Part shown: positions 3,639-64,000 of the stretch, one piece after another
Layout: every line of letters starts with the position of its first letter
Numbering within the stretch: position 1 is the first letter of the stretch
NCBI GenBank assembly: GCA_964399295.1
Contig: CAYNQD010000002.1
Span: 104,358 to 168,357, forward strand
Direction of reading: 5' to 3'
DNA length: 64,000 nt
DNA from: an uncultured Candidatus Saccharibacteria bacterium
Lineage (GTDB): Bacteria; Patescibacteriota; Minisyncoccia; Phycocordibacterales; UBA918
Notes under the pieces: model-generated
What the model saw: the letters and a program-made list of their open reading frames with translations, nothing else
What the model was told of the DNA's origin: nothing
The model's database searches: none
Made by a program: the position numbers and the translations under genes

Positions 3639-4250
3639 CTAACAACCAAACTCACTATTCTCACTGCAAGGACTGATGATGGTGTTTTCCAAGCTCGGTA
3701 CGCCTGGCTCATTTCCAGTGGTGGTAAAATCTTCAGCTTTCAAACCGTCTTCACCATTCCACATTGTCCAATAATATTTCCATTCATACCAACCGATATT
3801 GAGATGCTTGGTGGCAATTCCATTTTCAGAAAGAGCGAGGCCCACTTTTCGGCTAGCCATGCAGGCGGCACTGTAGCAGTAGGTAATAATGTCTTTATTT
3901 GGGTTGTCGGCTTTTAGTTCAGCAAAAGCGTTTACTATTCTTTCATTATTATCCTGTCCTGAAACCGCCGGGTCTATATAATTAGGAATGTTGATTGCGC
4001 TGGTGATGTGTTCGGCTTCATATTCAGCTGGAGTGCGAAGGTCTACCAAGACAAAAGAATCCTGTGTATTTCTTTGCAAGGCTGATTTAATATCGTAGGG
4101 ACTTACGGAAACCAAGTTTTCTATTTTGTAATATTCCGCGATGTGTTCCTCTTTAGTTTGATCAGAAAAGCTTGAGGTTGCGAGTACTCCCAAGCCACCA
4201 ATAACAACCCCCAGTATAAGGGCAACAATATGTGTATGTGTAATTTTCAT
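3639..4250 (-). CDS. membrane-anchored rhodanese-domain sulfurtransferase
   Basis: N-terminal TM helix. Rhodanese signature (VLVDLRTPAEYEAEHITSAINIP ... ITYCYSAAC catalytic Cys loop). Confidence 0.75.
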   Translation of the reverse strand: MKITHTHIVALILGVVIGGLGVLATSSFSDQTKEEHIAEYYKIENLVSVSPYDIKSALQRNTQDSFVLVDLRTPAEYEAEHITSAINIPNYIDPAVSGQDNNERIVNAFAELKADNPNKDIITYCYSAACMASRKVGLALSENGIATKHLNIGWYEWKYYWTMWNGEDGLKAEDFTTTGNEPGVPSLENTIISPCSENSEFGC

Positions 4251-6187: not shown

Positions 6188-6560
6188 GTAAATGAATAGA
6201 TTTCTGTCAGGAAAGCTGTCAAAGCAGTTTCTAACATTCTGTTGATAATTTTACTTATGCAATAAATTTTTTCAGATTTGTGTCACGTGGTTTTGAGGAT
6301 CAAATATCTGTGCCAACTTCATAACGCCGTCTGACACTTCTAAATCAAGAATATCGTTTGAGTCTACGAAGCGTATTTCCATACATTCACGCGAAGGGGT
6401 GAAATCAAAATCAGCAACCTGACATTCATAAACTATTTATGCTGACGCGATAGAAGCAGTCGGATATTGCTAGTGATGTTTTTGTGGACATGGTACTTTG
6501 ATTGTATCATGTTTTTAGTACCCAATCGTAATTAAAGATTTATATAAAAGTAAACTGATT

Positions 6561-6590
6561 AAATAAAAAAAGCCACCTCGTAGGGTGGCT
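6561..6590 (-). terminator. intrinsic terminator oriented for the minus strand
   Basis: AGCCACC-TCGTA-GGGTGGCT, followed on the minus strand by a T9 tract (A-run 6561-6570 on plus). Lies inside the 3' part of the 77-aa minus ORF 6515-6748. Confidence 0.5.
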
Positions 6591-6872
6591 AAAGTTAAGT
6601 CTTTTTCCTGTTGCAGGTCGAGCCATTCACTAGCTATCCGTTGCCTGACTGTTTTTGTAACCTCGTGAATCTGGTGGTGTTTCAGGCTATTTTCAACCAG
6701 TCTTTTACAACCTTCTGCCATTTCGGCAAATACCAAATCCTTAGACAAAAGGAACTCGAATCACTTGGTCATAAGGTTTATCGTATTTAGTACACTCGGT
6801 GGTGGCATAATCATACACAAGAAATTAACTCACTGCTTGCGTACCTAGAGCAGCTCTAGATATAATAATATT

Positions 6873-26535: not shown

Positions 26536-26750
26536 AATGAGCCAACGAGCGAAGCGACTATGGCGAATTTTGTTCCCGATTTGCCCTTCTCCGGGCAAAT
26601 CGCTGGAACTCGCGGTTTATAATTATTATGAAATCTAAATAGCAGTGTTTCGCCAGTAATTTTTCCTCCCAGAAAAATTATCGGCGCATTACCACTCTGA
26701 TATCAAAACCACTTTCTCATAGTAACCATAGCGAATTAAACAAAATAAAA

Positions 26751-26785
26751 CCCCGCAATACATCGCGGGGCTACTTCTTTTTTGT
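26751..26785 (+). terminator. weak terminator-like hairpin (CCCCGC/GCGGGG plus a T-rich run) inside the 650-nt non-coding spacer after argS
   Basis: Read directly. No plus-strand gene precedes it, so it may be the 3' end of an unannotated small transcript. Confidence 0.3.
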
Positions 26786-27271
26786 CTCACCGCCTTTTTC
26801 TATTCCAAGACGGAGTAACAATATTATTTTTCTTCCTATCCAACCGAAGCTTTAAATTTGCGTCGACTGGAAACAAACTTATTAAAGATAAAAACTTAAC
26901 TTTAATTTGTTGCAATATGTCTATAAATAAACCCATGATATTTTTCCTCGTCTATTTGAAAAATGTAACTTGCCCTTCCCCTTATAACATAAAATTATCC
27001 AATCGGACAGTCTCAATTTGCACGGTCCGTTTTTTGTGTTAAACTAAGCCACATGTCTTTGAGAAAGATTGCTACTAATATTTGGTTTATTTTCTTTATT
27101 TTTACTCCTCGGGAGAAGGTTTTTGCTGTTTAGATTTTCAGAACAAGAAAGTAAAAGCCTCCTCCCAGGGAGGTTTTTGTTTTGGAGAATGTTTTTAAAT
27201 TATTGAAAATATTCTCCAGGATAAAATATAAAATCCTGGACGGTGGTTCTTTTAAATTTTTTGGAGACTCC

Positions 27272-43358: not shown

Positions 43359-43376
43359 TTTATTAGCTTAATTACA

Positions 43377-43589
43377 TTGAAAGATATGGAACAACACAAT
43401 CTACACAAGAAGACAGCTATCGAGCATATCGACTACAAAGACATCACTCGTCTTGGTGCTTACGTAAATCCGCACGCTAGAATGTTGAATCGTCGCCGAA
43501 CCGGCTTTTCTGCCAAGTCACAGCGTGATTTTGCCAGAGCTATCAAGCGCGCCAGGTTCATGGCTTTGATGCCTTACATCCAGCACTAA
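43377..43589 (+). CDS. rpsR: 30S ribosomal protein S18
   Basis: IDYKDITRLGAYV...RRRTGFSAKSQRDFARAIKRARFMALMPY. Confidence 0.9.
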   Translation: MKDMEQHNLHKKTAIEHIDYKDITRLGAYVNPHARMLNRRRTGFSAKSQRDFARAIKRARFMALMPYIQH

Positions 43590-43604
43590 TTTGGTGTGAA
43601 AAAA

Positions 43605-43644
43605 CCAAGCCCGCTACCAACAGGTAGGCGGGCTTGGTTTTTTA
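43605..43644 (+). terminator. intrinsic terminator after rpsR
   Basis: CCAAGCCCGCTACC...GGTAGGCGGGCTTGG followed by TTTTTT. No rplI follows. Confidence 0.75.
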
Positions 43645-43708
43645 TAAAAGTGTACTATAATGAAAGCTGAAGTTTTTTCTAAAAATTTTCTTTAAAAAGG
43701 AGAAAAAG

Positions 43709-43831
43709 ATGAAAAAGTTTTTTCGCCGGATTAAATCCGGATTTAAGTGGTTTTTTAGCCTCGAAACCTGGGTCTCTAGTGACCCCTGGTATGATGAGGC
43801 GGACGAAGAACTCAGGAATAAGGGTCTGTGA
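43709..43831 (+). CDS. 40-aa Trp/Phe-rich peptide, unknown function
   Basis: AAGGAG 7 nt upstream of ATG 43709. Sequence MKKFFRRIKSGFKWFFSLETWVSSDPWYDEADEELRNKGL. Not in the ORF track because it is under 60 aa. Confidence 0.3.
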   Translation: MKKFFRRIKSGFKWFFSLETWVSSDPWYDEADEELRNKGL

Positions 43832-43906
43832 ATGACTTTTATTCCTACAAAGAAGCCCGTAACATTATATGTTGCGGGCTTATTTAATTATATGTAGAAA
43901 CGAAGA

Positions 43907-51559: not shown

Positions 51560-52291
51560 ATGGAAAAAGACAATATCTACGCAATAAAAAGACTATCTAG
51601 TAATAATGAATACTACAGTAATGTTTTTAAAAAGACAGAAAGAACAATTTCTGTTGTCTTCTATATATTGTCTTATATTGATAAAAATGAACACTCCGAA
51701 TTTCACATAAAGACCATGAGTGAAAAAGCCATGCAGGTCCATGAGGCTTCATTGGCGACACTGTCTTTATACGAATACGAAGCTAGGGAAAAGATTTTTC
51801 CTTTCCAGCAGTCTTTGGTCGCTTTGGAGGGTGTCTTAAGAATCGCCAACGCCGCCAGGGTTCTGACGGACGAGGTGTTGACATTGCTTTTGAGTGAAGT
51901 TGATTTAGTGCAGCGTTATTTGAAGAACCATTTTATGAGTGAAAGTCCAATGGTAATAAAAGAGGAAAATTACGCTACTTTATCACCTGAACCGGTTTTG
52001 TCTTTGGGTCACAAAAAGCCCTCTATCTCCCCGCGATCGTCGCGAGTAAATATCCCCAAGGGGGATATAAGTTCGGATGCCCACTTTGTGTACAGCCAAT
52101 TGGTAGATAGAGCCACGCGCATAAAGACAGTCCTTGAAGCCAAGCCGGAAGCCACCATAAAAGACATTGCAGAAATAATCACCGACGTAAGCGAAAAGAC
52201 AATCCAACGTGAACTCAATGGTCTGATAGAAAAAGGACAAGTAATCAGACAGGGCGAAAGGCGGTGGTCTAAATACTCAATAGCAAAATAA
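51560..52291 (+). CDS. hypothetical protein with a C-terminal winged-HTH
   Basis: C-terminal IKDIAEIITDVSEKTIQRELNGLIEKGQVIRQGERRWSKY. Confidence 0.5.
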   Translation: MEKDNIYAIKRLSSNNEYYSNVFKKTERTISVVFYILSYIDKNEHSEFHIKTMSEKAMQVHEASLATLSLYEYEAREKIFPFQQSLVALEGVLRIANAARVLTDEVLTLLLSEVDLVQRYLKNHFMSESPMVIKEENYATLSPEPVLSLGHKKPSISPRSSRVNIPKGDISSDAHFVYSQLVDRATRIKTVLEAKPEATIKDIAEIITDVSEKTIQRELNGLIEKGQVIRQGERRWSKYSIAK

Positions 52292-52998
52292 AAGACAGAA
52301 ATTTAAGCGTTGTTATTATAACTATTTTATATAGGACAAGAATATAAAACTGTCTAATAATCACTTTAGTTACAAATACACCCCGTTGTCCTCTATTGCT
52401 TTTTTAGAATTTTATTTTTTAATATTTTTTAGCAGTAAGAATGCCGGTATCGCCTCGTCATCACAGGCAGATAGAAGAGTTCAGTAGCATTGACGTTTTT
52501 TGTACTTTCACGTATCGTGTCGGTTACAGTGCTTTTGGTAAGTTGTTGTTATTTATATACGCCTACTCGTTGCTTATTTATCCTAAATAGGGAACAAGAG
52601 ATGGAGTGAATAATCCACACACTTAATATCCAAAGACTGTAGCAAAGTATAAGAACCTGCTATACTGTTCTTGTGCGCTCGTGCGCTTTTTTATTAAGGT
52701 TTGTTGTCTGTGTTGTGTAAGCCACAATTTCAGTTGAATCTTTTTACTAAAAAAGTGACACGAGGTATGAACGTTCTTTGATAAACATGCCAACCAAACT
52801 TCCTGTGTCTAAGCGACATGAGTTTTGTTGACAGGGTTGTGTAGAATGCTACACGATTTTCATATCTTACTTACCGCGTCTTGATGGCTGCCCTGCAAAG
52901 GGTAGATACAATATAATTGTTTCATCAAGTTCGCTTCCTGTTTGACCTTGTCCCGTTTCTATCCGCTTGTCCGCTTTCAGACCTTATACGCAGCTAAC

Positions 52999-53073
52999 CT
53001 GTATTCTCAAACGAAAAATTCGTCTGAGAATACAGTTAGTGATATTGCGTAGTTGGCGTGATAAACCAACTAC
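52999..53073. promoter_or_regulatory. two inverted repeats in the 885-nt leader of the surface-protein gene: CTGTATTCTCA-N15-TGAGAATACAG and GTAGTTGG-N9-CCAACTAC
   Basis: Read directly. Confidence 0.5.
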
Positions 53074-53176
53074 GAAATATGAATTAATTCATATTATCAG
53101 CCGTTATCAAATTTAACCGCTCAATTATATTGAGTATGCGTGTTAATCCCACGTAAAAAATTATTTAATTATATTT

Positions 53177-55153
53177 ATGACTATTGCAAAAGATTTTGTT
53201 GCAAAAGCTCTCGTAGCTTTTGTGGCTCTTGCGATGATCTTCACTACTTACACCCCTGCGGCGCAGGCTCAGTCAGCTGAAGATTTGCAAGCGATGATTA
53301 ATCAACTGCTAGCGCAGATTACTTCTCTCCAATCACAAGTTGGACAAGGTTCTGCTACAGCTTCAGGCTACACTTGGACTCGTGATCTTTCACAAGGTTC
53401 AACTGGTGCCGATGTAAGGGAACTACAAAAGTTCTTGAACTCAGATCCTGACACTCGCGTAGCTGCTACCGGTGTTGGCTCTGCTGGAATGGAAACTGAG
53501 TATTACGGACCGGCTACAGCAGCTGCCGTATCAAAGTTCCAAGTTAAGTACCGAGCGGATATTCTTTCTCCGTCTGGTCTTGTAAATCCAACTGGATACT
53601 TTGGTCCTAGCTCACGAGCTAAGGCTAACGCACAAAACACACCAGTGGTTGTGATTCCTGTTGATCCAAATGATGGAAATGATGATGACAATAATGGAGG
53701 TAGTACTCCAGGATTGAGTAGTTCAGAAGCAGAACTTAAGAGCTTCAATCTTCGCGCCGGTGATTACACCGAAGTAGAAGAGGGACGCGCTGACGTTGCT
53801 GTTGCTGAAGTAGAATTTGACGTAGAAGATGGTGATGCTCGCGTTGACCGTCTTGATGTTTGGTTTGACCGATCACAAGTTACTGGTAGCGCTGACGAAG
53901 ACCCATGGCGTGTCTTCCGTGAAGTATCTATCTGGGTAGATGGCGAGAAGGTAGCTTCAAAGCGTGTTGACAGTCGAAATGACTGGTCACGTAATGTTGA
54001 AACTGATCGTGATCGTATCCGCTTCACCGGTCTAGACATTGTCTACCGAGAAGATGACCGTGCTGAAATCATTATCGCTGTTACTTCACAGACATCAGTT
54101 CAGGACCCGGTTAATGCCAAGTGGCAAGTTATCGTTCCTAATGATGGTATCCGTGCTCGTGATGGTGCTGGTATCGACCAAACTATCGGTGATACTGCAC
54201 AGAACGTACAGTTTACTATCGCTCGCGATGGTAAGGACGATGAAGTTCGCGTTCGCAAGGCTTCATCAGATCCAGCTGCTACAGTACTTGAACTTGAAGA
54301 TGACAAGACTTCAAATTACCTAACAGTGTTTGCTTTCGAGCTTGACACTCGTGACAGTACTTCAGATATTGAAATCAACAAGTTGACTCTTAACGCTCAA
54401 GTAAGTTCATCTACTCTAAAGGACTTGGCTTCAGACATTCGTTTGCGAGCTGATGGCCGAACTTACTCACGTTCTAGTACAACTGCTAACGTTGTTGACT
54501 TCAACTTCAATGACGGTGAGCTTGTGATTGACCGTGGTGGTCGAGTAGTAGTGGAAGTCCTTGTTCGCTTCAATGCTTTGAAGCCAGGTGACGCCGGTAC
54601 AACTCTATCTATGAGTCTTAACTCAAATGGTATTACAGCTGAAGGTGCACGTACTCTACAGTCTAACGACATCTCAGGTGGCGCAACTGGTGAGACACAC
54701 ACCCTTATCACTGAAGGTCTACGATTCGTGAAGAAGTCACTTACATCTACTCGTATTCCTGGTTCTGGTAATAATCCAGTAGACAGTGCTGAATTCACAC
54801 TTGTAGTTGATGTTACTGCCGTTGGTGAGCAGTTCTTTATTGAGGATGATGCCGCCGCTTTCGCAGCGACTGTACTTCGAAATGGAACTACCACTGGTGT
54901 ATCTGGTGCTTCAACCACAAAGACCATGACTTCAAATGCGAACAAGGAGCAAAACCGCTTCCGTATTGATGAAGGTCAGACTCGTACCTTCACTCTAAAG
55001 GTCACTTACCGACCTTCAGGTGATGCTATGAACTTCCGAACCCAGTTTAACAGCTTGACATTCTACGATGCTCCAGCTGCTGGTACTTCAAAGACACAGA
55101 CCTTCACTCCAATTTCCGAGTACCGATCAGATGATGTAACTATCATTAACTAA
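53177..55153 (+). CDS. secreted surface (S-layer-like) protein with a PG_binding_1-like domain and a long Cys-free acidic beta-rich region
   Basis: Signal peptide ending AAQA-QSA. A putative peptidoglycan-binding domain (GSTGADVRELQKFLN...GPATAAAVSKFQ). About 480 aa rich in Thr/Asp/Val/Gly/Ser with no Cys. Codon choice is strongly biased (CGT, GGT, GCT, ACT, GAC, TTC) like rplL, unlike neighbouring genes. Confidence 0.65.
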   Translation: MTIAKDFVAKALVAFVALAMIFTTYTPAAQAQSAEDLQAMINQLLAQITSLQSQVGQGSATASGYTWTRDLSQGSTGADVRELQKFLNSDPDTRVAATGVGSAGMETEYYGPATAAAVSKFQVKYRADILSPSGLVNPTGYFGPSSRAKANAQNTPVVVIPVDPNDGNDDDNNGGSTPGLSSSEAELKSFNLRAGDYTEVEEGRADVAVAEVEFDVEDGDARVDRLDVWFDRSQVTGSADEDPWRVFREVSIWVDGEKVASKRVDSRNDWSRNVETDRDRIRFTGLDIVYREDDRAEIIIAVTSQTSVQDPVNAKWQVIVPNDGIRARDGAGIDQTIGDTAQNVQFTIARDGKDDEVRVRKASSDPAATVLELEDDKTSNYLTVFAFELDTRDSTSDIEINKLTLNAQVSSSTLKDLASDIRLRADGRTYSRSSTTANVVDFNFNDGELVIDRGGRVVVEVLVRFNALKPGDAGTTLSMSLNSNGITAEGARTLQSNDISGGATGETHTLITEGLRFVKKSLTSTRIPGSGNNPVDSAEFTLVVDVTAVGEQFFIEDDAAAFAATVLRNGTTTGVSGASTTKTMTSNANKEQNRFRIDEGQTRTFTLKVTYRPSGDAMNFRTQFNSLTFYDAPAAGTSKTQTFTPISEYRSDDVTIIN

Positions 55154-55204
55154 TAAGTTAGGATAAGTTCTTCTTCTCTTCGTAAAAGAGAAAGGTGAAA
55201 AGAA

Positions 55205-55230
55205 AAACCCCGCTTCGGCGGGGTTTTTCT
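55205..55230 (+). terminator. intrinsic terminator
   Basis: AAACCCCGC-TTCG-GCGGGGTTT followed by TTCT. Confidence 0.85.
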
Positions 55231-57481: not shown

Positions 57482-57521
57482 ATTTATTTATAATATTAAA
57501 AGTTTTGCTAATAAACCTATG

Positions 57522-57592
57522 TCGGGATAGCCGGAATCGAACCGGCGCCACACCCACCCCATGGGCGCACACTACCACTATGCTATACCCCG
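57522..57592 (-). tRNA. tRNA-Pro (anticodon GGG)
   Basis: Cloverleaf folded by hand. Acceptor CGGGGTA/TATCCCG. Anticodon stem CGCCC/GGGTG with loop ATGGGGT. T-arm GCCGG-TTCGATT-CCGGC. No CCA is encoded. Confidence 0.7.
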
Positions 57593-57882
57593 AATTGTCG
57601 CCCTCTTACAGTATTGTGTATTGTACTAGAAAATTTAGAAAAGGGGAGAGGTCGGCTACAAACACTTGGCACCCCGCTGATATTTCCAAGTCATATTTGA
57701 CAATTTAGAAAATATGTATTTGAACTACAGCTGGGGATTGCATAAAATTTTAATTGGTCTATACTACAGACAGTTCATTTAGTTCATTCATTTTTTAAAT
57801 TTTTTGGTTTCTGAAACCATAATTTCTTCCGAAAACCTACTTAATATTATTAAGTGGGATTTTTTATTTTTCATACATAATT

Positions 57883-57911
57883 TTGACGCCTTCTCTTTTT
57901 TCTGATAGTAT
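57883..57911 (+). promoter_or_regulatory. sigma70-like promoter for rplJ-rplL (-35 TTGACG, 17-bp spacer, -10 TAGTAT), followed by a leader of about 150 nt (putative L10 autoregulatory leader)
   Basis: Hexamers read directly. Leader length is typical of the rplJ leader. Confidence 0.5.
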
Positions 57912-58066
57912 CCTCGGCAACAGGCTCGTGACAGTCGGTCGCACCACAAGTGCGGTAATTGATACAGTTGGTATCAGCCGGCCGAGGTCCAACTATTTTG
58001 GTTTGGGGTCGAAGCCTATGCGTGATTTAAAATCATGCCTGGCCTGTTTTATTAGATTAGTTATTT

Positions 58067-62764: not shown

Positions 62765-64000
<1,236 letters not shown>

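What the first reader, a model, noticed from the sequence alone, without database searches (positions are those of the whole stretch)
52292..55153. Highly expressed-looking, Cys-free secreted protein (S-layer candidate) behind an 885-nt structured leader
The 658-aa protein has a classic signal peptide and a PG_binding_1-like module. It then has about 480 residues of acidic, Thr/Val/Asp/Gly-rich sequence with no cysteine. Its codon usage is sharply skewed toward CGT/GGT/GCT/ACT/GAC/TTC/AAC, the same skew seen in rplL and unlike neighbouring enzymes. Together these point to a very abundant cell-surface protein such as an S-layer or sheath. It is preceded by the longest gene-free stretch in the window. 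That stretch contains two inverted repeats (11-bp and 8-bp arms) and a GCGC hairpin plus T6 (about 52675-52700). These could mark a regulatory 5' UTR or a small upstream transcript.
Basis: partly seen in the sequence, partly recalled or inferred. Interest (0 to 1): 0.5.

Follow-up and report, generated by a model that had tools for sequence, protein, structure and literature searches.

The report
Surface-protein gene with conserved structured RNA leader
This is the main cell-surface protein gene of an ultra-small Paceibacteria (CPR) bacterium, and the long "empty" stretch in front of it is a previously undescribed, highly conserved, folded RNA leader found only in front of this gene family in hundreds of related genomes.

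Summary
ORF 53177-55153 encodes a 658-aa, Cys-free, acidic secreted protein. It has a PG_binding_1 anchor followed by Ig-like beta-sandwich domains and no catalytic domain. Its codon bias is the strongest in the window and most resembles L7/L12, NDK, L11, S6 and L10. It follows the longest ORF-free gap (885 nt).

The family is large: at least 1,880 clusters at 50% identity, all Paceibacteria/Patescibacteria. The gap is not empty. The last 187 nt (52990-53176) form five helices with strong covariation: 94.7% of cells paired and 34 of 42 pairs with compensatory changes. They surround an invariant 18-nt palindrome, ATATGAATTAATTCATAT.

A covariance model finds exactly one copy per locus, always abutting the family gene. 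A blind 22-nt metagenome scan landed in front of a family gene in 109 of 112 informative hits. Rfam 15 has no match.

Two further covarying helices, an extended -10 and an invariant GCGC hairpin suggest a leader of about 505 nt, preceded by promoter-like elements. A conserved HTH gene lies upstream in 72 of 81 loci.

An abundant wall-anchored surface protein with a regulatory leader is supported. S-layer self-assembly and the leader's mechanism remain untested.

The parts
53177..55153 (+). CDS of the 658-aa secreted surface protein. Signal peptide aa 1-31. Helix aa 34-55. PG_binding_1 aa ~65-155. Disordered D/N/G-rich linker aa 158-181. Three to four Ig-like beta-sandwich domains aa 186-656.
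55203..55229 (+). Strong intrinsic terminator AAAAACCCCGC-TTCG-GCGGGGTTTTTC, 50 nt after the stop codon. The gene is monocistronic.
   Evidence: Read directly from the sequence. The equivalent terminator is present in L083.
52990..53176 (+). Core structured leader RNA. P1 is 52993-53040. P2 is 53048-53074, with UGAUAA in its loop. P3 is the invariant palindrome AUAUGAAUUAAUUCAUAU at 53077-53094. UUAUCA is at 53104-53109. P4 is 53119-53135. P5 is 53138-53154. An A/U-rich run without a Shine-Dalgarno sequence leads to the AUG.
   Evidence: Covariance model R1 scores 143.9 bits, E 1.8e-24, and is the only hit in the window. Covariation. G-U against A-C asymmetry of 251:54. Folding z-score -7.55. 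No Rfam match.
52673..52989 (+). Probable 5' part of the leader. Invariant GCGC-N4-GCGC hairpin plus U6 at 52673-52692. Helix Ba at 52713-52727. Conserved block GGUAUGAACGUUCUUUGAUAAACAUG at 52764-52789. Helix Bc at 52835-52858. UUUCAUAUC at 52858-52866. Pyrimidine-rich block UCGCUUCCUGUUUGACCUUGUCCCG at 52931-52955. UUUCAGACC at 52975-52983.
   Evidence: Alignments A7 and A10. Covariation of Ba and Bc on a structure-blind alignment. Coordinates.
52658..52666 (+). Extended -10-like element TGCTATACT, 6 nt before the GCGC hairpin. This is candidate main promoter P3, which would put the transcription start near 52672-52673.
   Evidence: Conserved in all 30 sequences of A8. TGnTAnnnT lies 4-11 nt before the hairpin in 81 of 83 loci that carry the hairpin. 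No transcript-end data are available.
52490..52518 (+). Promoter-like element P2: TTGACG, 17 nt, TATCGT. In the window-like class the -35 is invariant and the -10 keeps TAnnnT.
52396..52425 (+). Promoter-like element P1: TTGCTT, 18 nt, TAATAT. The family consensus is cTTGCCa-N17/18-TAnT. Invariant blocks follow: GTAAG (52435-39), CGTCATCACAGGCAGA (52456-71) and AATCCACA (52612-19).
   Evidence: Alignment A7. Anchor census.
51560..52291 (+). 243-aa protein with a C-terminal winged-helix HTH. It is the conserved upstream neighbour and a candidate regulator of the locus.
   Evidence: Weak HTH matches to TrmB, DeoR and ArsR types. A homologue lies upstream on the same strand in 72 of 81 loci. At least 1,185 homologues, labelled by JGI as 'ArsR family regulator'.

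Best explanation
This is the primary envelope-protein locus of a Paceibacteria (Patescibacteria/CPR) bacterium.

The protein. The monocistronic gene encodes a Sec-secreted protein. Its PG_binding_1 module tethers it to the cell's own peptidoglycan. A flexible acidic linker then projects a rod of Ig-like beta-sandwich domains outward. It is made in very large amounts and most likely forms the outermost proteinaceous coat. It is S-layer-like in design and resembles Gram-positive S-layer proteins, with PG_binding_1 in place of SLH.

The leader. Expression runs through a long, conserved, highly structured 5' leader RNA. This is a new RNA family that occurs only in front of this gene family. The leader is at least 187 nt with five covarying helices around an invariant palindrome. 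It probably totals about 505 nt, starting at a 5'-terminal GC hairpin just behind a conserved extended -10. Further promoter-like elements lie upstream.

Proposed mechanism. The leader most likely stabilises the mRNA, because the 5' stem-loop and compact fold would block 5'-end-dependent decay. It probably also sets translation initiation in a genome that hardly uses Shine-Dalgarno sequences. The invariant unpaired and palindromic segments would serve as a binding platform for a trans-acting factor. The syntenic HTH protein is the obvious candidate.

What is shown and what is inferred. Shown: protein architecture, codon bias, family distribution, RNA covariation, exclusivity of the RNA to the gene, and synteny. 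Inferred: abundance in vivo, lattice formation, the transcription start, the stabiliser or regulator role, and the HTH link.

For: Literature. Signal-peptide proteins of unknown function with peptidoglycan-binding domains are among the five most highly expressed secreted-protein genes in three Paceibacteria (PMC10936435). An apparent S-layer was seen by cryo-EM on Ca. Nealsonbacteria (10.1101/2022.04.20.488981).

RNA. The covariance model finds one hit per locus in 73 loci, all on the + strand and abutting the ATG. 94.7% of cells are paired, against 72% when shuffled and 33-43% when slid. 34 of 42 pairs carry double changes. The same structure holds on the structure-blind alignment: 92.7% paired and 21 pairs with double changes. 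G-U against A-C is 251:54. Helices Ba and Bc covary further upstream. The 22-nt core is followed by a family gene in 109 of 112 informative metagenome hits. Paralogues without the leader also lack the HTH neighbour. TGnTAnnnT sits before the GCGC hairpin in 81 of 83 loci. A strong terminator follows the gene. Precedent exists: the slpA 5' UTR stem-loop, two promoters and a 15-min half-life (PMC10221546).
Against: There is no direct expression, transcript-end or proteomic data for this organism. Whether the published highly expressed proteins belong to this family was not verified by sequence. Nothing here tests lattice self-assembly. The fold matches are generic Ig-like arrays that are equally typical of adhesins.

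The hairpin plus U6 could be a terminator for transcripts from the upstream promoter-like elements, rather than a 5' end. The palindrome never varies except symmetrically, so it cannot be assigned to RNA or to DNA. The pseudoknot rests on co-occurrence and has only one compensatory case. The large covariation count comes from an alignment fitted to the model.
Confidence: 0.7

Rival explanations
1. The protein is a host-attachment adhesin, not a cell-covering S-layer. The Ig-like rod would bind the host cell surface. The PG-binding module would anchor it in the symbiont wall, or would bind host wall polymers.
For: The best fold matches are Ig-like arrays of adhesins and pili: SafDAA, PrgB, SspB, UafA, SdrC/E and integrin legs. 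Kuroda et al. propose host attachment for highly expressed PGBD proteins in archaea-parasitising Paceibacteria (PMC10936435). The C-terminal domains evolve fast, at 40-47% identity, while the neighbouring HTH protein keeps 70-80%.
Against: The family is near-universal and of uniform length (~640-710 aa) across Paceibacteria that have very different, and partly archaeal, hosts. Codon bias at the level of ribosomal proteins suggests bulk structural amounts. Adhesin and coat roles are not mutually exclusive.
Confidence: 0.3
2. The leader is a riboswitch or another ligand-sensing RNA. It would tune envelope-protein synthesis to a metabolite or second messenger, as proposed for the SLH motif upstream of S-layer-homology genes.
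For: A multi-helix junction with many invariant unpaired nucleotides and a possible pseudoknot. Strict association with one gene family. Precedent: the SLH riboswitch candidate (PMC6429828).
Against: No recognisable expression platform. There is no terminator between P5 and the AUG, and no Shine-Dalgarno sequence to sequester, since the genome uses them in only 2 of 42 genes. A single regulated gene type gives no clue to a ligand. P4 and P5 are replaced in a shorter leader class, whereas P1-P3 are kept.
Confidence: 0.2
3. The upstream 52396-52692 segment is an independent small-RNA gene of about 260 nt with its own promoter (P1) and terminator (the GCGC hairpin plus T6). The mRNA leader would start only further downstream.
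For: A promoter-like TTGCTT-18-TAATAT conserved across loci. Invariant blocks follow in conserved order and spacing: GTAAG, CGTCAT.., AATCCACA. The segment ends in a hairpin plus T-run.
Against: No covariation or consensus helices were found in this segment. It shows only invariant blocks separated by variable-length spacers, which is the signature of DNA sites. The hairpin stem is just four invariant G-C pairs. An extended -10 lies 4-11 nt before it in 81 of 83 loci, so the hairpin would sit at a transcript's 5' end. Rfam has no match.
Confidence: 0.2
4. The conserved upstream elements act purely at the DNA level as operators and promoters. The apparent helices would be incidental inverted repeats.
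For: The 18-nt palindrome, GAACGTTC and the GCGC repeats are sequence-invariant and symmetric, like binding sites for dimeric transcription factors. An HTH gene is syntenic. A single-sequence fold is equally stable on both strands.
Against: P1, P2, P4, P5, Ba and Bc change sequence freely while keeping their pairing. Each pair shows up to six pair types, and the loops are GNRA or UUCG types. G-U pairs outnumber A-C five to one, which only makes sense for RNA of the + strand.
Confidence: 0.1
5. The protein is a peptidoglycan hydrolase, as some database labels say ('peptidoglycan hydrolase-like protein with peptidoglycan-binding domain').
For: JGI labels on several homologues. PG_binding_1 commonly accompanies wall hydrolases (top hits).
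Confidence: 0.03

Closest known systems
Gram-positive S-layer proteins built as a wall anchor plus tandem beta-sandwich domains (B. anthracis Sap/EA1, Geobacillus SbsB). Recalled from my own knowledge, not tested here.
   Same: Sec signal peptide, an N-terminal cell-wall-anchoring module and a chain of Ig-like beta-sandwich domains. Acidic and Cys-poor. Very high expression. A monocistronic gene with a strong terminator.
   Different: The anchor is PG_binding_1 (PF01471), not SLH. There is no detectable sequence homology. No S-layer protein ranks among the top PDB fold matches. Lattice formation is not shown.
Highly expressed PGBD/Ig-like signal-peptide proteins of Ca. Yanofskyibacterium, Microsyncoccus and Minisyncoccus (Kuroda et al. 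2024, PMC10936435)
   Same: Class Paceibacteria. Signal peptide, peptidoglycan-binding domain, unknown function and similar predicted structures across species. Among the top five expressed secreted-protein genes. PMX_810_sub_00350 is 2,079 nt, close to this family's ~2.0 kb.
   Different: Sequence identity to this family was not verified. That paper interprets the proteins as host-attachment 'extracellular enzymes' and does not describe any upstream RNA.
Lactobacillus slpA expression signals: tandem promoters and a stabilising 5' UTR stem-loop (PMC10221546)
   Same: A long untranslated leader whose 5' end is base-paired. More than one promoter. The purpose is extreme, stable expression of a surface-layer gene.
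   Different: The leader here is far larger (at least 187 nt, probably ~505 nt). It has at least 7 covarying helices and long invariant single-stranded segments conserved across a whole class. That is more than a stabiliser hairpin would need.
SLH motif RNA, a riboswitch candidate upstream of S-layer-homology genes (Stav et al. 2019, PMC6429828)
   Same: A conserved structured RNA motif specifically upstream of cell-surface-layer protein genes. Its function is unknown.
   Different: Different taxa (Synergistaceae, Firmicutes), different downstream domain (SLH) and a different sequence and structure. No Rfam family matched this region even at E<=10.
Thermus thermophilus slpA control by SlrA/SlpM and binding of SlpA to its own 5' UTR. 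Recalled from my own knowledge, not checked.
   Same: An S-layer gene with a leader that serves as a protein-binding regulatory platform, plus dedicated transcription factors.
   Different: No homology was tested. Here the candidate regulator is a syntenic 243-aa HTH protein whose binding is purely hypothetical.

Membership tests
PG_binding_1 (PF01471) domain proteins | Pfam score at or above the gathering cut-off | tested here: met
   23.6 bits against a cut-off of 23.0, E 5.9e-5, aa 76-125. This is marginal, but many homologues also carry the precomputed PF01471 hit.
PG_binding_1 (PF01471) domain proteins | Three-helix PG-binding fold | tested here: met
S-layer protein | Secreted, with a cell-wall anchoring module | tested here: met
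   n-h-c signal peptide with AQA|Q, by inspection. PG_binding_1.
S-layer protein | One of the most abundant cellular proteins | tested here: inconclusive
   Only indirect evidence. Lowest Nc in the window and usage closest to ribosomal proteins. Literature on probable homologues. No data for this organism.
S-layer protein | Self-assembles into a 2-D paracrystalline lattice covering the cell | not testable with these tools
   Only monomer prediction was available. Cryo-EM of a related lineage reports an 'apparent S-layer' without identifying the protein.
S-layer protein | Homology to a known S-layer protein family or SLH domain | tested here: not met
Peptidoglycan hydrolases | A catalytic domain (amidase, peptidase, lysozyme or transglycosylase) | tested here: not met
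Any described RNA family (Rfam 15) | Covariance-model match at gathering score, or at least a suggestive E-value | tested here: not met
   No hit at gathering score in the gap. At E<=10 only noise: miRNA models, and GcvB at 16 bits against a threshold of 42.
Structured cis-regulatory mRNA leader | Conserved secondary structure supported by compensatory changes, on the coding strand and contiguous with the start codon | tested here: met
Riboswitch | Expression platform (a terminator/antiterminator or a start-site sequestering helix) coupled to the aptamer | tested here: inconclusive
   No terminator lies between P5 and the AUG. There is no Shine-Dalgarno sequence to mask. P5 ends about 22 nt before the AUG.
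Riboswitch | Specific ligand binding | not testable with these tools
   Requires in-line probing or ITC.
Intrinsic terminator (for 52673-52692) | G+C-rich hairpin followed by a U-tract at the 3' end of a transcription unit | tested here: inconclusive
   The hairpin plus T6 is present. The stem is only four invariant G-C pairs. It lies 4-11 nt after a conserved TGnTAnnnT in 81 of 83 loci. That fits a 5'-terminal stem-loop at least as well.
Sigma-70-type promoter (P1, P2, P3) | -35 and -10 hexamers at 16-18-nt spacing, or an extended -10, conserved in position | tested here: met
   Actual initiation was not tested. In the window alone the promoter scan was not above chance (6 found against 6.7 expected).

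The most novel reading that the evidence does not exclude
The ~500-nt conserved leader may be more than an mRNA stabiliser. It could be a new class of large regulatory RNA, either riboswitch-like or ribonucleoprotein. It would couple synthesis of the dominant envelope protein of Paceibacteria to a cellular or host-derived signal. The invariant palindrome and junction nucleotides would be the sensor or protein-binding core, and the syntenic HTH protein would be its partner. That would give the first class-wide post-transcriptional control circuit described for CPR bacteria. It would also provide a ready-made, portable expression and regulation module for these genetically intractable organisms.
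Probability: 0.22. Interest if true: 0.85.

Novelty: new variant of a known kind. Interest (0 to 1): 0.66.

Why it matters
Patescibacteria/CPR make up a large share of bacterial diversity, yet their envelope proteins and gene regulation are almost unknown.

This locus nominates one protein family as the major wall-anchored surface protein of class Paceibacteria. The family has about 1,900 clusters at 50% identity. That makes it testable by proteomics and cryo-ET.

The locus also reveals a large structured RNA element absent from Rfam. The element is as strongly conserved as many riboswitches and is strictly tied to that gene.

The RNA is a good target for structure probing. It marks the "primary" copy of the gene. 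It is also a candidate strong-expression cassette (promoters plus leader plus terminator) for emerging genetic tools in Patescibacteria.

Tried and rejected
- Rfam at gathering score and at E<=10 found nothing real in the gap.
- NCBIfam and PDB sequence searches gave no named family for the protein beyond the PG-binding domain.
- RNAalifold on raw MAFFT alignments recovered only P1 and the palindrome, because variable hairpin lengths break the alignment. I solved this with a hand-built seed and a covariance model.
- RNAalifold on the distal segment 52432-52699 found no covarying helices, only invariant CGTCA/TGACG and GCGC stems. I therefore read that segment as DNA-level promoter or operator blocks, not as a structured small RNA.
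- I looked for transcript ends in short public contigs. A 2,855-nt JGI contig (L083) looked mRNA-sized but contains the upstream promoter-like region. Two others start at arbitrary points. They give no transcription-start information.
- Lack of a Shine-Dalgarno sequence is not a special feature of this gene. Only 2 of 42 genes in the window have one.
- The P2-loop:UUAUCA pseudoknot has co-occurrence support but only one compensatory case, so I left it as unproven.
- The AFDB50 fold library was unavailable.
- I could not verify by sequence that Kuroda's PMX_* proteins belong to this family. Only gene length, signal peptide and domain description are available.
Full report
**What is at the coordinates**

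ORF 53177-55153 (+) encodes 658 aa. The 885 nt before it (52292-53176) is the longest stretch in the 64-kb window without an ORF of 90 aa or more. The next longest is 685 nt. The window comes from a Patescibacteria genome. All homologues of the protein come from Paceibacteria, Kaiserbacteria, Nomurabacteria or Parcubacteria metagenome-assembled genomes. Neighbouring genes are RecA, FtsK, NDK, EF-P and ribosomal proteins. A 23S rRNA gene starts at 62773 with no 16S gene anywhere upstream in the window.

**The protein**

Pfam finds only PG_binding_1, marginally: 23.6 bits against a cut-off of 23.0. NCBIfam finds nothing. PDB sequence search finds only the PG-binding domain of 1lbu.

An AlphaFold model built on 46 homologues has pLDDT 84.4. 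It shows these regions:
- a signal peptide
- a long helix (aa 34-55)
- a helical PG-binding domain (aa ~65-155)
- a disordered D/N/G-rich linker (aa 158-181)
- three to four beta-sandwich domains (aa 186-656)

The protein is acidic (95 D+E against 65 K+R) and has no Cys. However, the family consensus has two near-invariant Cys bracketing the PG-binding domain. Both are lost here.

**Expression signals in the coding sequence**

The gene has the lowest effective number of codons of 51 genes: 39.9 against a median of 54. Its synonymous usage differs from the rest of the window at p about 6e-49. The genes most like it are L7/L12, NDK, L11, S6, L10, RNR-small, SSB and NusG. This is the classic signature of translational selection. 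Third positions are A/T-biased across the whole family.

A strong intrinsic terminator lies 50 nt after the stop codon, at 55203-55229. The next gene has its own TATAAT. The gene is therefore monocistronic.

**Family size and literature**

A profile search of 1.84 billion representatives gives 1,880 clusters at 50% identity with E<=1e-30. Almost all are 640-710 aa and align over their full length.

Kuroda et al. (PMC10936435) reported on three Paceibacteria. Signal-peptide proteins of unknown function that carry a peptidoglycan-binding domain, with mutually similar predicted structures, are among the five most highly expressed secreted-protein genes. One of them, PMX_810_sub_00350, is 2,079 nt with a signal-peptide cleavage site at 26-27. 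This is probably the same family, but I could not verify it by sequence.

Cryo-EM of Ca. Nealsonbacteria shows "an apparent S-layer" (10.1101/2022.04.20.488981). A preprint reports S-layer proteins in Patescibacteria by homology (10.1101/2024.05.28.596244).

**The gap is a conserved structured RNA leader**

I aligned the gap with the syntenic gap of a relative whose protein is only 51% identical (L002). The alignment showed exact DNA blocks separated by hairpins of different sequence.

Among 82 loci (L001-L082), the core GAATTAATTC lies about 50-140 nt before the family gene's ATG in 72. A hand-curated seed of 16 sequences gave covariance model R1, with 172 positions and 42 base pairs. Searching 774 kb (the window plus 81 loci) returned one +-strand hit in each of 73 sources. 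Every hit abuts the ATG. The window has a single hit, 52990-53179, at 143.9 bits and E 1.8e-24.

Covariation on the resulting 74-row alignment:
- 94.7% of cells form standard pairs, against 71.7% when shuffled and 33-43% when partners are slid.
- 34 of 42 pairs carry changes on both sides.
- 630 cells are compensatory, against 161 when shuffled.
- Individual pairs show up to six pair types.

The same structure holds on the structure-blind MAFFT seed, with 92.7% paired and 21 pairs carrying double changes. RNAalifold independently recovers P1 and the palindrome hairpin.

G-U-type cells outnumber A-C-type cells 251 to 54. This assigns the structure to RNA of the gene's strand. A single-sequence fold cannot make that assignment, since z is -7.55 on one strand and -7.58 on the other. 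Hairpin loops are frequently GNRA or UUCG.

Helices in window coordinates:
- P1, 52993-53040
- P2, 53048-53074
- P3, the invariant palindrome AUAUGAAUUAAUUCAUAU, 53077-53094
- P4, 53119-53135
- P5, 53138-53154

The palindrome's only variants stay symmetric: AAGAAUUAAUUCUU in 10 sequences and GAAUAUAUUC in L068. Long junction segments are nearly invariant, namely GUUAGUGAUAUU, GAAUAUG...UAUUAUYAG and UUAUCAAA.

A pseudoknot between the P2 loop UGAUAA and UUAUCA (53104-09) is suggested because the two motifs are present or absent together. It has only one compensatory example.

**Exclusivity**

I ran a blind exact-match scan of 241 million metagenome records with the 22-nt core. In 109 of 112 informative hits a family gene starts 45-175 nt downstream on the same strand.

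Seven genome loci lack the leader. They are divergent paralogues with different N-termini, several in genomes that also hold a leader-bearing copy. They also lack the HTH neighbour.

Rfam 15 has no match at gathering score or at E<=10. Literature searches found no description. The nearest precedent is the unrelated SLH motif (PMC6429828).

**How far upstream the leader extends**

The long gap itself is conserved, at roughly 640-1,060 nt after a ~240-aa +-strand ORF in 29 of 49 measured loci.

Between 52700 and 52990 there are two more covarying helices. Ba (52713-52727) is 93% paired, with 4 of 5 pairs carrying double changes. Bc (52835-52858) has 8 of 9 pairs with double changes. Both were scored on a structure-blind alignment. 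The same stretch holds these invariant blocks:
- GGUAUGAACGUUCUUUGAUAAACAUG
- UUUCAUAUC
- a pyrimidine-rich block
- CAGAC

Its stem is just four G-C pairs and never varies. In 81 of the 83 loci that have it, a TGnTAnnnT extended -10 lies 4-11 nt upstream. In the window this is TGCTATACT at 52658-52666.

The simplest reading is a promoter whose transcript begins at the purine that opens the hairpin. That gives a 5'-terminal stem-loop and a leader of about 505 nt. This is the design known to stabilise Lactobacillus slpA mRNA (PMC10221546).

Further upstream the conserved sequence looks like DNA sites rather than RNA. The blocks are invariant, the spacers vary in length, and there is no covariation. 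They include two more promoter-like elements: TTGACG-17-TATCGT at 52490-52518 and TTGCTT-18-TAATAT at 52396-52425. I cannot exclude that transcripts from these elements end at the hairpin plus T6 as a ~260-nt small RNA.

**Context**

A 243-aa protein with a C-terminal winged-helix HTH (51560-52291) is the same-strand upstream neighbour in 72 of 81 loci. FtsK is present in 68 of 81. Downstream genes are not conserved. The HTH protein is more conserved than the surface protein, at 70-80% against 42-47% identity in the same genomes. It has at least 1,185 homologues, all in this clade. It is the obvious candidate to bind the invariant palindromes, but nothing here tests that.

The genome almost never uses Shine-Dalgarno sequences, with only 2 of 42 genes having one. 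The SD-less A/U-rich start region is therefore normal for this organism. Synonymous sites of codons 2-17 are less variable than later ones. This hints that RNA-level constraint runs about 50 nt into the coding sequence.

**Verdict**

S-layer lattice formation remains untested, and an adhesin role is a serious alternative.

The new result is the leader. It is a large, class-wide, covariation-supported RNA element that is strictly coupled to this gene family and absent from Rfam. Its most likely role is mRNA stabilisation and translation control, with a protein-binding core. A ligand-sensing role is possible but lacks an expression platform.

Noticed in passing
window 53177-55153 (aa ~63 and ~154); alignment A1: The family consensus has two near-invariant cysteines bracketing the PG-binding domain (..GVCPYTWTRDL.. 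and ..ANxLC..), probably a disulfide. This orthologue and its 99%-identical relative have lost both together.
   Followed up: partly
window 51560-52291 (+): A 243-aa protein with a C-terminal winged-helix HTH and an unassigned helical N-domain. It lies next to the leader in 72 of 81 loci and is more conserved than the surface protein. It has no PDB or Pfam family beyond weak HTH matches. It is a candidate dedicated regulator.
   Followed up: partly
whole window (42 gene starts): Only 2 of 42 genes have a Shine-Dalgarno-like sequence. Many have a TATAAT-like hexamer 10-25 nt before the ATG. This suggests very short leaders or leaderless mRNAs as the norm, which makes the ~500-nt leader stand out.
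   Followed up: partly
window 62773-64000 (+): The 23S rRNA gene starts here with no 16S rRNA gene anywhere in the preceding 62.7 kb. This indicates an unlinked rRNA operon.
   Followed up: no
L037 ~3830-3900, L050 ~1400-1470, L070 ~3790-3860: Three leaderless paralogues share a different conserved upstream element: TAAGACACAGTATGC..CTCACA..N..GTGTGAG. It may be another promoter or RNA motif specific to the second gene copy.
   Followed up: no
window 53180-53230 (codons 2-17): The signal-peptide N-region MTIAKDFASK.AVAFVA is unusually conserved for a signal peptide. Its synonymous sites are less variable than those downstream (for example GCA at codons 4 and 17). Small inverted repeats occur here (GCAAAAGAUUUUGC; AAAGCU..AGCUUU). 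The leader structure may extend into the coding sequence.
   Followed up: partly
window 52764-52789 and 53077-53094: Two invariant blocks share TGAA..TTC half-sites at different spacing: TGAACGTTC and TGAATTAATTCA. They could be sites for the same factor.
   Followed up: no
loci L003, L020, L023, L024, L047, L051, L055, L058, L065, L071, L073, L074, L081, L082: A second leader class keeps P1-P3 and the palindrome. It has only 47-70 nt between the palindrome and the ATG, with P4 and P5 replaced by one short hairpin. P1-P3 are therefore the conserved core.
   Followed up: partly
window 6188-6872, 26536-27181, 57482-58066, 43359-43906: Other ORF-free gaps of 550-685 nt were not examined. The one at 57482-58066 holds tRNA-Pro(GGG) at 57521-57592 on the minus strand.
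   Followed up: no
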